Made by a program: the position numbers and the translations under genes. A DNA stretch of 4,139 bases, taken from positions 1 through 4,139 of the IMG/VR virus record IMGVR_UViG_2690316345_000015; one strand, written 5' to 3'. The notes beneath the pieces were generated by a model. The model saw only the letters and a list, made by a program, of their open reading frames with translations, did not search any database and had not been told where the DNA came from. Origin of the DNA: a virus (Duplodnaviria > Heunggongvirae > Uroviricota > Caudoviricetes). Shown piece after piece: positions 1 through 4,139 of the stretch (its first letter is position 1; the number at the start of each line of letters is the position of its first letter).

Positions 1-71
1 GTGCTTTTGCCGTTACGCACCACCCCGTCAGTAGCTGAACAGGAGGGACAGCTGATAGAAACAGAAGCCAC
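1..71 (-). CDS. insA: IS1 InsA, N-terminal fragment (partial; runs off window start)
   Basis: On the minus strand a GTG at 71..69 is followed by GCT TCT GTT TCT ATC AGC TGT CCC TCC TGT (ASVSISCPSC...), the known InsA N-terminus with its zinc-finger Cys residues. Confidence 0.88.
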   Translation of the reverse strand, partial: MASVSISCPSCSATDGVVRNGKS

Positions 72-126
72 TGGAGCACCTCAAAAACACCATCATACAC
101 TAAATCAGTAAGTTGGCAGCATCACC
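1..126 (-). mobile_element. IS1: IS1 insertion sequence, left-end portion (element continues beyond window start). Terminal inverted repeat IRL at 104..126; outer end at 126.
   Basis: Reverse complement of 1..126 reads GGTGATGCTGCCAACTTACTGATTTAGTGTATGATGGTGTTTTTGAGGTGCTCCAGTGGCTTCTGTTTCTATCAGCTGTCCC..., which matches the canonical IS1 left end including the 23-bp IRL as I recall it. Match is from memory, not a database search. Confidence 0.93.
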
Positions 127-195
127 CAGGAACAGAGTTAAAAAGCCGGAACCGGAATCAAATCACAGGATGACCATCTGCCAGTGGCAGGTCAT

Positions 196-221
196 AAAAA
201 AAGGCCGCGCCATGCGCAGCC
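196..221 (-). terminator. Rho-independent terminator on the minus strand: hairpin GGCTGCGC-ATG-GCGCGGCC (203..221) followed by a T7 tract (196..202)
   Basis: Minus strand reads GGCTGCGCATGGCGCGGCCTTTTTTTATGAC: an 8-bp GC-rich stem (one G-U wobble), 3-nt loop, then seven U. It is oriented to stop transcripts coming from the moron region at higher coordinates. Confidence 0.6.
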
Positions 222-407
222 AGAACTCACAAGGAAAATGATAGAAGGAAATAACATTAGTGATGTACGCATGGCGCCTCCCGCTAAGTTCTGCAATGAT
301 CAAACAGAACTCGCTACGTGTCCTTAAAACTCGATCATTTAGCCTCTCCAAGGAGGATTCACCATGCGGTTGATTTTTTAATAAACAGTAAACAAAAAAG
401 TCAAGGA

Positions 408-518
408 TTATTCATTCTGTTTTTTCATCATCGGCCACAGCAATACCACAATGCCGCAGACCAGAGCGCCATCAGTCAGTACCAACATTATCCTGCTGGT
501 GAAATCCATCATCACCAT
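408..518 (-). CDS. Hypothetical small hydrophobic protein (36 aa from ATG at 518; up to 52 aa if TTG at 566 is used): MVMMDFTSRIMLVLTDGALVCGIVVLLWPMMKKQNE
   Basis: Hand translation of the minus strand. Below the 60-aa cutoff, so absent from the ORF track. Strongly hydrophobic with a charged KKQNE tail, and lies between the membrane-protein gene and the terminator at 196..221. No convincing Shine-Dalgarno sequence, so low confidence. Confidence 0.25.
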   Translation of the reverse strand: MVMMDFTSRIMLVLTDGALVCGIVVLLWPMMKKQNE

Positions 519-651
519 CACTAAAAGCAGGATCACAACAGCAAGCAGACACAGTTTATAAAACAATGTTCAGAAAACGCATTCTGCATGCCTAAGGTTC
601 TATTCTTACGAATAGCCAACTTGCAACTTAAAATATTATTTATGCAGCCAA

Positions 652-1410
652 TTAAATTCTGGTCCTTACAATATCAACCTGAAGATTCTTATCTTGTGCT
701 GATTGATAAATGACAAACCTCTTACTACCTGCATTAAAAGAAGTAGACAAAACCAGACAATTATCATAACGAGCAAGAACATAATACCAAGCATCATTAT
801 AATTAATCATTTCATATTCTTTCTTAAACTGAGGTTTGTAATATCCTGTCAGAAATGAGAAGAGCCAGAAATATGCCACAAAAGCAACCATCACAACTTC
901 AAAAAAATGTTTTTTTATAAATGGCTTACCATAGAAGCATGATACCGATAAAAATCGCCCATAAGATCTTATCGAAATTGTAACTGCCAGCGCAATCGCT
1001 GCTGACAGTAGCAAAAGAGGTAACTGAATCTTCTGTCTCAATATAGAAAACTCAATAATTGCCGGCACAAACAATAATTCCACAGCAAAATAAAGGCGAA
1101 ATACATTTAGCTCCTGCATAGAATGTTTTCTTTTCACAGCGAAAAAGAATACAACACCAATACCCCAACCGATAAGAAATATAGCAATGACGATAACTGC
1201 AAAAAATAAACTTCTGACAACATCATCAACACCTGCACCTACAATCCACCATGGGAATCCGTAGTAAAAAGAAGTACCCCAGCCATAGAAATAAGCACTC
1301 CCCCATCCAAGGCATCCCATGTAGGCTATAAAAAGTGAAGAACTCCTGAGCAGTGCACCATCCTTCATAACCACCTCTATACAAGATGATAACATTGGCT
1401 TGAAACTCAT
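652..1410 (-). CDS. Uncharacterised polytopic inner-membrane protein (252 aa; alternative start at Met15, codon 1368..1366, preceded by GAGGTG). About 5 predicted TM helices plus a ~60-aa hydrophilic C-terminal domain. AT-rich moron downstream of Q.
   Basis: Uninterrupted 759-nt ORF in AT-rich DNA, where random ORFs of this length are improbable. Hydrophobic segments approx aa 26-46, 65-92, 105-123, 130-147 and 169-188, with positively charged loops (KRKH, RQK, KKH). Sampled 60-nt stretches give roughly 30-37% GC, against about 53% in the adjacent Q gene. No family recognised by eye. Confidence 0.8.
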   Translation of the reverse strand: MSFKPMLSSCIEVVMKDGALLRSSSLFIAYMGCLGWGSAYFYGWGTSFYYGFPWWIVGAGVDDVVRSLFFAVIVIAIFLIGWGIGVVFFFAVKRKHSMQELNVFRLYFAVELLFVPAIIEFSILRQKIQLPLLLLSAAIALAVTISIRSYGRFLSVSCFYGKPFIKKHFFEVVMVAFVAYFWLFSFLTGYYKPQFKKEYEMINYNDAWYYVLARYDNCLVLSTSFNAGSKRFVIYQSAQDKNLQVDIVRTRI

Positions 1411-1576
1411 AACAAAAGCAATTCAATGCCGTCAAGAGGTTACAGGCTAAAAAACCTCTATTACATTGCAGTCAGCATGTTTACTACACAAATACAATTC
1501 AGAGCATAAAAACTACTCGGCGGCAGGTTATTGAGACTCATCAGTGACAGGTAAAAAATGCCCATTATTGGTGTCA

Positions 1577-1605
1577 AACTTACCCAAAGTTATTCAAAAA
1601 GTCAA
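1577..1605 (-). promoter_or_regulatory. Lambdoid late promoter pR' with Q-utilisation (qut) region: -35 TTGACT (1605..1600), 17-bp spacer, -10 TAAGTT (1582..1577), then a -10-like pause element AATAAT (1569..1564)
   Basis: Minus strand reads TTGACTTTTTGAATAACTTTGGGTAAGTTTGACACCAATAATGGG, which aligns closely with lambda pR' as I recall it (TTGACTTATTGAATAAAATTGGGTAAATTTGACTCAACGATGGG). It lies about 45 bp downstream of the Q stop codon, as in lambda. Confidence 0.75.
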
Positions 1606-1647
1606 TATTATGCCGTTAATATGTTGCCATCCGTGGCAATCATGGCG

Positions 1648-2271
1648 CTAACGTGTGATCGCATTCAAAATGTTGTCTGCGATTGACTCTTCCTTGTGGC
1701 ATTGCACAACCAGAGCGTCATACAGTGGCTTAACAGTGCGTGACCAGGTGGGTTGGGTAAGGTTTGGGATTAGCATCGTTACAGCGCGATATGCGGCACT
1801 TGCTGGCATCCTTGAATAGCCGACGCCTTTGCATCTTCCGCACTCTTTCTCGACAACTCTCCCCCCCTGCTCTGTTTTTGCTATATCAACCGCACGGCCT
1901 GTACCGTGGCAATCTCTGCATCTTGCGCCCGGCGTCGCGGCACTACGGCAATAATCCGCATAAGCAAATATTGCGAGCACTTGCAGTACCTTTGCCTTAG
2001 TATTTCCTTCGAGCTTTGCCACACCACGGTATCTCCCCGATACCTTGTGTGCAAATTGCATCAGATAGTTGATAGCCTTTTGTTTGTCGTTCTGGCTGAG
2101 TTCGTGCTTACCACAGAATGCAGCCATTCCGAATCCGGCTTGTGATTGCGCCATCCCCATAGCAGCCATCACATCAGTACCGGAAAGAGAGTCAGAAGCC
2201 GTGGCCGGTGGTGAGTCGCTCATCATCGGGCTTTTTGGCGAATGAAATTTAGCTACGCTTTCGAGTCTCAT
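1648..2271 (-). CDS. Q: Late-gene antiterminator Q (207 aa), lambda Q type
   Basis: Translation [21 protein letters not shown]...[12 protein letters not shown]...[14 protein letters not shown]... is near-identical to lambda Q as I recall it, including the Cys4 zinc-binding motif. Its start ATG overlaps the upstream phosphatase stop (ATGA at 2271..2268). Confidence 0.95.
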
Positions 2272-2933
2272 GCGCCTTCTCCCTGTACCTGAATCAATGT
2301 GAGGTTTCCGCAGAATACTGCGCCGGTATCGATATACATCTGGTTGGCAAATTTGAGTGGTTTCACTGCTGGCGTATGACCAAAGATGAACGTGTCCGCG
2401 CCTTTGATTTCTTTCACGATCCCGTCTTGTGAGTTGCTGATTCGTTCGCGGTTCCAGATTACCTGCTGATGATCAACTGGCTTTCCAAACTCGTATTCAT
2501 CACAAGGATAATCGGCGTGGCAGATGACATATTTTTTACCTTTGCTCACCAGTTCGATGATTAACGGAAGTTCATCTGCTTTCTGGGCAAGAGCTTTAGC
2601 CAGAATTTCTTTGTCGTAATCGAGATTAAAGAACCAGCCACCGCCATTAAGCAGCCAGTGATTGACGTTTCCACGCTCTGATAAGCCATCAATCATCATT
2701 TGCTCATGGTTTCCACGTACAGCTCTGAACCAGGGGAATGTGATTAATTCCAGGCATTCTACGTTCTCTGTACCGCGATCAACCAAATCGCCCACCGAGA
2801 TAAGCAGGTCTTTTTTGGTGTCGAATCCTATCGTCTCCAGTTTTTTCATCAGGTTCGTGTAGCATCCGTGCAGATCGCCAACTACCCAAATATTTCGGTA
2901 TTTGCTGCCATCAATTCTTTCGTAGATATTCAT
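2268..2933 (-). CDS. ninI: Ser/Thr protein phosphatase, lambda NinI (ORF221 / lambda PPase) type, 221 aa
   Basis: PPP-family metallophosphatase motifs GDLHG, GDLVDRG and GNHE are present. Sequence is near-identical to lambda phosphatase over most of its length; the N-terminus differs slightly (MNIYERIDG here vs MRYYEKIDG in lambda, from memory). Confidence 0.95.
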
Positions 2934-3541
2934 GCAACCTCACTTCTGCTATTTCGCAGGTCTTTGAGTTTCTGTTGGTACTCTGCCTTGATCGCCTTGC
3001 ACTCTTCGATAGTCCAGCGATGGCGGTTATGGTTTGATTCGATTTCGTCTACTGCTTCCTGCCCGATGCGGATAATCAGTTCGACGCGATACGGAACGAG
3101 ATTTCCGCTTTTGTGCTGGTTGCACACCACGCATTGCTTGTGAATATTGCGTTCATCAAATCGGAGTTGAGGTGCCGCAGCAGTTGTCCGGTAATGTCCG
3201 GCATCCCACTGAGCAGACGTGAGCGTTCCGCACGAGATACATGGTAAGTCGCGGTCTCTTTCTCTGATGAAGGCGTTTACGGCTTGTTGGGCTTGTTTAA
3301 TCCAGTAACTGCGGGGCTTTAAGGCGAGTTTTCGAATCTTAAGTTTATCTTTCTGTCTCTGATCCTCTCGTCGTCGTTTCTTCTCTGCTGCTTTTTCCGC
3401 TTTTTCGCGTTCTTTACTTCGTCGTTCGAGTGCTATCTTGGTTCCACACTCTGGAGAGCACCACCACTGATTAGCGAATGCAGGGTGAAACCATTCCCGA
3501 CATTCATCGTTTTTACATCGTCTTCGCGCTGGTTTAGCCAT
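2930..3541 (-). CDS. ninG: NinG / Rap (recombination-adept, structure-specific endonuclease), 203 aa
   Basis: Translation [33 protein letters not shown]... matches lambda NinG (Rap) as I recall it. GAGGAAG Shine-Dalgarno about 7 nt upstream of the ATG at 3541. Its stop overlaps the ninI start (ATGA at 2933..2930). Confidence 0.93.
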
Positions 3542-3594
3542 CGTCTTCTTCCTCGTACATTGAGCTATTCGGATCGCTCATCAGTTCTGTGCAG

Positions 3595-4038
3595 TTATGG
3601 TCTGCCATGGTTTTCATGAAAACCCAGTTCTTTTTCTGCCCTCTTCCTTTCTGCAATAGCGTCAATGATGCTAGCAAATATTCCAAGATATTTGGTGCGC
3701 CCATCTACGCATATATTCGCAATCCACTTACATCTCTCTTTATTGAAATATACTCCAGTCACTCCTGACGAATTGGTTATTTTTCTCTTTTGGTTCTGTG
3801 CATTCTGTTGGTGTGTAACCAATCGAAGATTAGATAGCCTATTATCTGACCTTACTCCATTTATATGATCAATTTTATACCCTAATGGAATCTCACCATT
3901 ATTTATCATCCATATAACGTGGTGAGCATAAGTAATTACACCATCGATAGTTAACATCCTATAACCATCACTCCTAATGTAACCAGCAACACTGCCAACC
4001 TTAACATTATTAGAAGGAGACACTGGTAATGACTCCAA
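3595..4038 (-). CDS. HNH homing-type endonuclease with C-terminal AP2-like DNA-binding domain. The 5' end is disrupted or fused: ORF positions 4025..4038 are IS1 terminal-repeat sequence, so the native N-terminus is probably truncated. Possible GTG start at 4023.
   Basis: HNH_3-like motif (...YAHHVIWMINNGEIPLGYKIDHINGVRSDNRLSNLRLVTHQQN...) followed by an AP2-like segment (SSGVTGVYFNKERCKWIANICVDGRTKYLGIF...). The TTG start in the ORF track lies inside the IS1 IRR (GGTAATGACTCCAA...). Confidence 0.7.
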   Translation of the reverse strand: MESLPVSPSNNVKVGSVAGYIRSDGYRMLTIDGVITYAHHVIWMINNGEIPLGYKIDHINGVRSDNRLSNLRLVTHQQNAQNQKRKITNSSGVTGVYFNKERCKWIANICVDGRTKYLGIFASIIDAIAERKRAEKELGFHENHGRP

Positions 4039-4139
4039 CTTATTGATAGTGTTTTATGTTCAGATAATGCCCGATGACTTTGTCATGCAGCTCCACCGAT
4101 TTTGAGAACGACAGCGACTTCCGTCCCAGCCGTGCCAGG
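4025..4139 (-). mobile_element. IS1: IS1 insertion sequence, right-end portion (element continues beyond window end). Terminal inverted repeat IRR at 4025..4047.
   Basis: 4025..4139 is the reverse complement of the canonical IS1 right end as I recall it (...CCTGGCACGGCTGGGACGGAAGTCGCTGTCGTTCTCAAAATCGGTGGAGCTGCATGACAAAGTCATCGGGCATTATCTGAACATAAAACACTATCAATAAGTTGGAGTCATTACC). Confidence 0.93.
4040..4139 (-). CDS. insB: IS1 InsB (InsAB' transposase), C-terminal fragment (partial; runs off window end)
   Basis: Minus-strand translation ...[32 protein letters not shown] with stop TAA at 4042..4040, the known InsB C-terminus. Confidence 0.88.

What the first reader, a model, noticed from the sequence alone, without database searches (positions are those of the whole stretch)
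1..4139. Lambdoid Q-region fragment bracketed by two IS1 copies in direct orientation (composite-transposon-like)
The window starts inside one IS1 (IRL outer end at 126) and ends inside another (IRR outer end at 4025), both in minus orientation. The 3.9-kb segment carrying HNH-ninG-ninI-Q-pR'-moron therefore lies between directly repeated IS1 elements, the same geometry as Tn9-type IS1 composite transposons. This could make the Q/pR'/membrane-protein module mobilisable independently of the phage, or it may simply reflect IS1-mediated decay of a prophage, as is common in Shigella and E. coli.
Basis: partly seen in the sequence, partly recalled or inferred. Interest (0 to 1): 0.55.

Follow-up and report, generated by a model that had tools for sequence, protein, structure and literature searches.

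The report
Prophage fragment between two IS1 ends
The window is one complete short-read contig holding 3.9 kb of an ordinary lambda-like prophage, cut off at each end where the assembler ran into a copy of the common insertion sequence IS1, and nothing shows that the piece has moved as a unit.

Summary
Window 1-126 is the left end of IS1 (nt 126 to 1) and 4025-4139 is its right end (nt 768 to 654). Both are 100% identical to IS1A, both are in minus orientation, and both junctions fall exactly on the IS1 termini.

The window is an entire 4139-nt contig of a draft assembly (GCA_001285045.1, CYCA01000112.1). It stops inside IS1 because short-read assemblers cannot cross a multi-copy repeat. Only about 120 nt of each IS1 is visible, and nothing beyond.

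The interior (127-4024) is collinear with uninterrupted lambda-like prophages in other assemblies, at 99.9% identity or better in the closest of them. It carries HNH (5' end lost), ninG, ninI, lambda-type Q, pR', a TfpB-like membrane protein and DUF3927. The closest relative differs by 2 of 3898 bases and has no IS1 at either site.

Neither junction occurs in 5,426 complete E. coli genomes, 72,556 plasmids, 50,697 phages, IMG/VR, JGI metagenomes or GTDB representative genomes.

The most likely reading is two recent, separate IS1 insertions into a resident prophage. The Tn9-like geometry is real but applies to any neighbouring IS1 pair, and there is no sign of en-bloc movement. The decisive target-site-duplication test could not be run, because the far sides lie outside the contig and I could not retrieve them. 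Ordinary; low interest.

The parts
1..126 (-). Left end of IS1 (IS1A nt 126 to 1). IRL is at 104-126. The first 23 2/3 codons of insA (GTG start at window 71) run off the contig end.
   Evidence: 100% identity to K-12 IS1A nt 1-126. insA/insB coordinates come from the K-12 annotation.
127..135 (.). Nine bases (CAGGAACAG) next to the left IS1: the expected target-site duplication if this was a simple insertion. The second copy would lie beyond the contig.
   Evidence: Alignment to intact prophages starts exactly at 127. The intact sequence across the site was read.
203..221 (-). Terminator-like hairpin followed by a T-run, downstream of the DUF3927 gene.
   Evidence: Consensus scan only: 1 site found against 1.3 expected by chance, so weak evidence.
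408..566 (-). DUF3927 small membrane protein (52 aa), second gene of the moron (accessory-gene) pair.
   Evidence: Pfam PF13064, E 1.4e-14; phrog_1470.
652..1395 (-). 247-aa membrane protein, TfpB-like (PF27470 in precomputed hits), first gene of the moron pair downstream of pR'.
   Evidence: Called as 247 aa with PF27470:TfpB in relatives; phrog_1521, E 1e-150, function unknown; no hit in the local Pfam copy.
1577..1605 (-). Late promoter pR': -35 TTGACT at 1605-1600, -10 TAAGTT at 1582-1577, with the lambda-like Q-binding region between them.
   Evidence: Near-identical to lambda from the end of Q through the promoter; homology fades shortly downstream of the -10.
1648..2271 (-). Lambda-type antiterminator Q (207 aa).
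   Evidence: Pfam PF03589, E 5e-56. The DNA is about 97% identical to phage lambda over 1573-3594, except that lambda's ninH is absent here.
2268..2933 (-). NinI serine/threonine phosphatase (221 aa).
   Evidence: Pfam Metallophos, E 5e-17; annotated as such in relatives.
2930..3541 (-). NinG (Rap) recombination endonuclease (203 aa).
   Evidence: Pfam PF05766, E 7e-91.
3534..3704 (-). ORF whose last ~21 residues are the C-terminus of NinF. It is the remnant of a ninF gene split by the HNH cassette.
   Evidence: Named NinF by NCBI. phrog_672 matches residues 35-55 only. Comparison with an HNH-less ninF.
3595..4024 (-). HNH_3 endonuclease gene lacking its first 77 nt (25 2/3 codons) because of the right IS1. 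The HNH domain itself is intact.
   Evidence: Pfam PF13392, E 1e-19. The intact 168-aa gene in relatives aligns up to 4024.
4016..4024 (.). Nine bases (GGAGACACT) next to the right IS1: the expected target-site duplication if this was a simple insertion.
   Evidence: Alignment to intact prophages ends exactly at 4024; intact sequence across the site.
4025..4139 (-). Right end of IS1 (IS1A nt 768 to 654). IRR is at 4025-4047. The last 33 codons of insB plus its stop codon occupy 4040-4139.
   Evidence: 100% identity to K-12 IS1A nt 654-768.

Best explanation
The window is a complete contig from a short-read draft genome, apparently E. coli. It holds an internal 3.9-kb piece of a resident lambda-like prophage: the end of the nin region, Q, pR' and a two-gene membrane-protein moron. 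Two IS1 copies inserted into that prophage, most likely in two separate events. One landed 77 nt into an HNH endonuclease gene upstream of ninG. The other landed in the non-coding stretch between the moron and the lysis genes. IS1 is multi-copy, so the assembler could not cross either copy and the contig ends about 120 nt inside each. Shown: the IS1 ends and their orientation, the exact insertion points, collinearity with intact prophages, and absence of the unit elsewhere. Inferred: that the rest of the prophage lies on the far sides, each IS1 with its own 9-bp duplication, and that the pair arose in place. The pair has the geometry of a Tn9-type composite transposon, as any two neighbouring IS1 copies do, but there is no evidence that it has moved.
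For: One search returns CYCA01000112.1 (GCA_001285045.1) at 4139 nt, and one search shows its reverse complement is identical to the window. One search shows IS1 nt 1-126 and 654-768 at the two ends at 100% identity, ending on the IS1 termini. Searches show the interior 127-4024 aligning end to end, without rearrangement, to prophages that run on through both sites (L004 99.92%, L005 99.90%, L002 99.85%). One search shows the closest relative, L025, with 2 mismatches in 3898 and no IS1 in the locus. Searches show that in those relatives the flanks are ninB-ninE-133 aa-ninF' on one side and holin-lysozyme-Rz-terminase on the other. One search shows 233 complete E. coli genomes holding at least 80% of the window, none reaching beyond 127-3594 in the listed best rows. 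Searches found 0 complete E. coli genomes with either junction. Searches (plasmids; phages) found no IS1-bounded unit. Searches found no exact junction matches in GTDB representatives, IMG/VR or JGI metagenomes. One search shows IS1 ends are common: median 10 and up to 68 places per E. coli genome. One search shows a Logan contig of run ERR137800 that is 100% identical, including the window-specific base at 1403, which fits a single-strain origin.
Against: The far sides of both IS1 copies were never seen, so separate target-site duplications and continuing prophage DNA are assumed, not shown. The chimeric ORFs predicted for far-side junctions with 7-11 bp duplications are not on record. This is weak evidence, because such fragments are usually annotated as pseudogenes or not called. 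Look-ups of neighbouring prophage proteins did not bring up any other contig of the source assembly. Those lists are capped at 10 places, so this is uninformative too. With about 10 IS1 copies in 5 Mb, two copies within 3.9 kb is expected in under 10% of genomes if insertion were random. That gives a mild hint of local hopping or an IS1-rich host rather than pure chance.
Confidence: 0.8

Rival explanations
1. The IS1-segment-IS1 unit is a composite transposon that has already transposed en bloc out of its prophage, using the outer IRL of one IS1 and the outer IRR of the other. It now sits in unrelated DNA and carries Q, pR' and the moron pair.
For: Direct-repeat IS1 geometry identical to Tn9. 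IS1 pairs spanning several kb do transpose as units when IS1 is active (PMC12065110).
Against: No second context for the unit or its junctions in any collection searched. The cargo has no evident selectable function. The cargo is 99.9% identical to, and collinear with, intact prophages in relatives, as expected for in-place insertion. The base rate of en-bloc moves is far below that of single IS1 insertions.
Confidence: 0.04
2. The segment is an isolated prophage remnant. One or both IS1 copies mediated an adjacent deletion, or recombined with a distant IS1 (deletion or inversion). The far sides are then not the neighbouring prophage genes and there are no matching duplications, but the unit did not transpose as a whole.
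For: IS-mediated deletions and inversions are frequent where IS copies are many (PMC12065110). Far-side junctions predicted for simple insertion were not found in any collection.
Against: Those negative searches are uninformative, because the inner junctions, which certainly exist, were not found in the same collections either. Nothing in the window distinguishes this reading from simple insertion.
Confidence: 0.13
3. Both contig ends join the same IS1 node of the assembly graph because the molecule is a circle of one IS1 plus the segment, or a tandem array (IS1-segment)n produced by recombination between the direct repeats.
For: Read in gene orientation, the contig leaves the right end of IS1 and enters the left end, which closes a cycle in an assembly graph. 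From my own recollection, direct IS600 copies cause tandem amplification of the stx region in Shigella dysenteriae 1 (McDonough and Butterton 1999). That paper was seen here only as an entry in the reference list of PMC7819885.
Against: The segment has no replication origin; in the relatives the O and P replication genes lie outside it, so a circle would not persist. No coverage information is available to suggest amplification.
Confidence: 0.03

Closest known systems
Tn9-type IS1 composite transposon (two IS1 copies in direct orientation flanking cat)
   Same: Two IS1 ends in direct orientation bracket a few kb of unrelated DNA. The outward-facing ends would be one IRL and one IRR, as transposition requires.
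   Different: Tn9 is defined by movement as a unit, with a single target duplication and occurrence in several replicons. Here the outer ends and duplications are unseen, and the unit occurs nowhere else in the collections searched. The cargo has no known selectable marker.
IS-riddled defective lambdoid prophages of E. coli and Shigella (e.g. the Stx prophage remnant of Shigella dysenteriae 1, which contains an IS600 upstream of stx)
   Same: Insertion sequences sit in and around the Q/late-regulatory region of a lambdoid prophage. From my own knowledge, direct IS repeats there allow deletion or amplification by homologous recombination.
   Different: Here the IS is IS1 and no toxin gene is present. 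Nothing shows that the prophage is defective beyond the truncated HNH gene. PMC7819885 confirms only the defective Stx prophage and an IS600 upstream of stx; the role of flanking repeats is my recollection of the cited 1999 paper.
Phage lambda nin-Q-pR' region and relatives such as phage 2B8 and phage 434
   Same: ninG, ninI, Q and pR' are about 97% identical to lambda. The TfpB-like and DUF3927 pair follows Q in phages 2B8 and 434.
   Different: ninH is absent. An HNH cassette splits ninF. Lambda has orf-64 rather than this moron pair between pR' and S.

Membership tests
IS1 family insertion sequence (IS1A-like) | Terminal inverted repeats of about 23 bp at the element ends | tested here: met
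   IRL GGTGATGCTGCCAACTTACTGAT = reverse complement of window 104-126. IRR-end sequence GGTAATGACTCCAACTTATTGAT = window 4025-4047. 100% identity to IS1A.
IS1 family insertion sequence (IS1A-like) | Full 768-bp element with insA and insB | not testable with these tools
   Only nt 1-126 and 654-768 are in the contig: the first 23 2/3 codons of insA and the last 33 of insB.
IS1 family insertion sequence (IS1A-like) | Target-site duplication (usually 9 bp) flanking each copy | not testable with these tools
   The far sides are outside the contig. Predicted far-side junctions were not found in IMG/VR, and predicted chimeric ORFs are not on record. Both negatives are uninformative.
Composite (compound) transposon, Tn9 type | Two copies of the same IS flanking a DNA segment | tested here: met
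   IS1 ends at both contig ends, in direct orientation. Only the inner ends are seen.
Composite (compound) transposon, Tn9 type | One target-site duplication flanking the whole unit, with DNA unrelated to the cargo outside it | not testable with these tools
   The contig ends inside both IS1 copies.
Composite (compound) transposon, Tn9 type | The same IS-bounded unit present in more than one genomic context | tested here: not met
   0 of 5,426 complete E. coli genomes hold either junction, and none hold the whole window. None in 72,556 plasmids or 50,697 phages. No exact junction in GTDB representatives, IMG/VR or JGI metagenomes. The exact-protein look-ups that reached the source found the IS1-bounded contig only in that one assembly, counted as 2 samples. 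Complete Shigella genomes were reached only through these exact-protein look-ups, not by BLAST.
Lambdoid prophage late-regulatory region | Q antiterminator followed by pR' with a Q-binding region, preceded by nin genes, collinear with known phages | tested here: met
   Pfam hits, alignment of pR' with lambda, and end-to-end collinearity with intact prophages.

The most novel reading that the evidence does not exclude
The IS1-Q-pR'-moron-IS1 unit is a working composite transposon. It could carry a phage late promoter, its antiterminator and a membrane-protein cassette to new sites independently of the phage, and it may already sit outside its original prophage in the source strain.
Probability: 0.04. 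Interest if true: 0.4.

Novelty: already known. Interest (0 to 1): 0.1.

Why it matters
It matters little biologically. IS1 insertions in prophages are routine in E. coli and Shigella, and any two neighbouring copies look like a composite transposon. The useful lesson is methodological: a sequence that starts and ends inside the same repeat is most often a whole short-read contig. 'Bracketed by two IS copies' then describes where the assembler stopped, not a demonstrated mobile unit. If the unit were shown to move, it would be a small example of a phage regulatory module hitch-hiking on IS1.

Tried and rejected
1. Exact junction patterns. The two inner junctions were scanned in IMG/VR, JGI metagenomes and GTDB representative genomes; the two far-side junctions predicted for 9-bp duplications were scanned in IMG/VR only. 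All returned 0.

2. 120-nt junction probes against complete E. coli genomes. No place covered 80% of either probe.

3. Exact-protein look-ups of the truncated HNH with three possible starts. The 147-aa form is not on record. The 120-aa and 142-aa forms occur only in other, IS1-free contexts; no IS1 was detected in those loci.

4. Look-up of predicted far-side chimeric ORFs for duplications of 7-11 bp. Only the 69-aa form matched. It proved to be an ordinary partial protein at the end of a 671-nt contig that ends in native phage sequence, not IS1.

5. Look-ups of neighbouring prophage proteins (133-aa protein, O), hoping to surface other contigs of the source assembly. The source was not among the 10 places shown, and some places were collapsed.

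6. A possible coincidence of the left IS1 site with a phage mosaic boundary. Rejected: in E2348/69 and phage 2B8 the homology runs 42 nt past the site.

7. Literature search for the assembly and run accessions: nothing, so the organism name is not confirmed. Identical proteins in relatives are named Escherichia coli by NCBI.
Full report
**Observation**

I took IS1A from E. coli K-12 (768 bp, NC_000913.3 19796-20563) and compared it with the window. IS1 nt 1-126 matches window 126-1, and IS1 nt 654-768 matches window 4139-4025. Both matches are 100% identical (E 1e-64 and 2e-58).

Both copies are in minus orientation, so they are direct repeats. Each junction falls on the terminal nucleotide of IS1, which is what a real insertion gives and a chimeric assembly would not.

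**Where the window comes from**

An exact-protein look-up with the 247-aa membrane protein returned contig CYCA01000112.1 of draft assembly GCA_001285045.1. It is 4139 nt long, and its reverse complement is identical to the window. The window is therefore a whole contig.

- A short-read assembler cannot traverse a multi-copy 768-bp repeat, so contigs stop a read-length or so inside it.
- That explains why the window 'starts inside one IS1 and ends inside another'.
- Only 126 and 115 nt of the two copies are in the data, and nothing beyond them.
- A Logan contig of run ERR137800 is 100% identical over 435-2301, including the window-specific base at 1403. It probably comes from the same strain.
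- No tool gave the organism name. Identical proteins in relatives are named Escherichia coli by NCBI.

**Interior**

All genes lie on the minus strand:

| Window coordinates | Feature | Evidence |
|---|---|---|
| 3595-4024 | HNH_3 endonuclease, first 77 nt missing | |
| 2930-3541 | NinG | |
| 2268-2933 | NinI phosphatase | |
| 1648-2271 | Lambda-type Q | |
| 1605-1577 | pR' (-35 at 1605-1600, -10 at 1582-1577), near-identical to lambda pR' through the promoter | |
| 652-1395 | 247-aa TfpB-like membrane protein | |
| 408-566 | 52-aa DUF3927 protein | |

From 1573 to 3594 the DNA is about 97% identical to phage lambda itself, except that lambda's ninH is absent here.

**Relation to intact prophages**

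The whole interior, 127-4024, aligns end to end and without rearrangement to prophages in other draft genomes that run straight through both IS1 sites:

- L004 99.92%, L005 99.90%, L002 99.85%.
- L025, the closest, has 2 mismatches in 3898, and a BLAST of IS1 against it finds nothing.

In these relatives the DNA outside the right site is ninF'-133 aa-ninE-ninB-ren-P-O. Outside the left site it is holin-lysozyme-Rz-terminase.

The right IS1 sits 77 nt into the 168-aa HNH gene. The left IS1 sits 281 nt downstream of the DUF3927 stop and about 340 nt upstream of the holin gene. That stretch holds only a doubtful 132-aa reverse-strand ORF, which is frameshifted in the window by a 1-nt difference in an A-run.

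The left site is not a phage mosaic boundary. Homology with E2348/69 and phage 2B8 runs 42 nt past it.

**Is the unit found elsewhere?**

| Collection | Result |
|---|---|
| 5,426 complete E. coli genomes | 233 hold at least 80% of the window, but the best matches stop at 127 and 3594; no genome holds either 120-nt junction probe |
| 72,556 plasmids | no IS1-bounded unit |
| 50,697 phage records | no IS1-bounded unit |
| GTDB representatives, IMG/VR, JGI metagenomes | 0 exact matches to either inner junction |

Among the exact-protein look-ups, only those with the 247-aa membrane protein and the 50-aa NinF remnant returned the IS1-bounded contig, and only from the source assembly, counted as two samples. 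So there is no second context, and therefore no evidence of en-bloc movement.

**The target-site-duplication test**

This is the decisive test, and I could not run it.

- From the intact relatives I derived the far-side junctions expected for simple insertions with 9-bp duplications, CAGGAACAG and GGAGACACT. I searched for them in IMG/VR and found nothing.
- I predicted the chimeric ORFs those junctions would create for duplications of 7-11 bp and looked them up. Only a 69-aa form matched. It turned out to be an ordinary partial protein at the end of a 671-nt contig that ends in native phage sequence.
- Look-ups of neighbouring prophage proteins did not surface any other contig of the source assembly within the 10 places shown.

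All these negatives are uninformative. The inner junctions, which certainly exist, were also absent from the DNA collections.

**Most likely mechanism**

Two IS1 copies inserted, probably separately and recently, into a resident lambda-like prophage. The contig is simply the stretch between them.

- IS1 ends are common in E. coli: median 10 and up to 68 places per genome in the junction-probe search.
- Orientation is a coin toss.
- With n copies in 5 Mb, the expected number of neighbouring pairs within 3.9 kb is about n² × 3.9 kb / 5 Mb. That is roughly 0.08 for n = 10 and more than 3 for n = 68.
- A pair like this is therefore unremarkable in an IS1-rich strain and only mildly unusual otherwise.

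I put this reading at about 0.8. A variant in which one or both far sides were remodelled by IS1-mediated deletion or inversion gets about 0.13. A unit that has really transposed gets about 0.04. A circle or tandem array gets about 0.03.

**Comparison with known systems**

- *Tn9.* The geometry matches Tn9. Laboratory evolution with a hyperactive IS1 shows that any IS1 pair can move the DNA between it (PMC12065110). So 'potentially mobilisable' is true, but generically so.
- *Membership as a composite transposon.* This requires evidence of movement as a unit. The only such feature I could test, occurrence in more than one context, was not met.
- *Natural analogue.* The nearest natural case is the IS-riddled defective lambdoid prophage, such as the Stx prophage remnant of Shigella dysenteriae 1. 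PMC7819885 confirms that prophage and an IS600 upstream of stx. The role of direct IS600 repeats in amplification and deletion is my recollection of McDonough and Butterton 1999.

**Verdict**

The feature is ordinary, and interest is low.

Noticed in passing
window 3534-4024 (and beyond 4024 in relatives; L025 5514-6056): The HNH endonuclease gene is itself a discrete insertion of about 543 bp inside ninF. Relatives carry a 72-aa NinF N-terminal fusion upstream. The window keeps an ORF (3534-3704, minus) whose last ~21 residues are the NinF C-terminus. Phages without the cassette have an intact 56-aa ninF abutting ninG. It looks like a free-standing homing-endonuclease cassette splitting a nin gene. 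A second insertion of about 433 bp (the 133-aa 'bZIP' gene) lies between ninE and ninF.
   Followed up: partly
L014, L015, L016, L019, L020: Several short-read contigs from unrelated samples begin 0-46 nt upstream of the internal ATG of this HNH gene. The cassette's 5' part may be a repeat or mosaic boundary shared by several prophages in one genome, which would break assemblies there.
   Followed up: no
window 189-195 (A-run): The window, L005 and L025 lack one A that L004, L002 and L008 have. This frameshifts the 132-aa reverse-strand 'hypothetical protein' annotated between DUF3927 and the holin in some genomes, so that ORF is probably not a real gene.
   Followed up: partly
window 408-1395; L021 14223-15210; L033 2781-3741: The TfpB-like plus DUF3927 gene pair follows different antiterminators: lambda-type Q here and a PF06323 Q in EPEC E2348/69. 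In those phages it sits just upstream of a SASA/NanS-p esterase gene, the position Stx phages use for accessory genes. Its function is unknown (phrog_1521 is unannotated; DUF3927 is labelled 'TciB-like').
   Followed up: no
window 2928-2930 (ninG/ninI junction): ninH, present between ninG and ninI in lambda, is absent. BLAST matches to lambda-like phages split into two pieces at this point.
   Followed up: no
window 1403: A single base (A; all relatives examined have C) is specific to the window and to the Logan contig of run ERR137800. It lies just upstream of the annotated start of the 247-aa gene.
   Followed up: partly
window 4021-4038: The IRR end of IS1 supplies a GGAG 9 nt upstream of an in-frame GTG at 4023. 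That GTG is the start some annotations use for a 142-aa form of this HNH protein (E2348/69), so the truncated gene could still be translated. This is speculative.
   Followed up: no
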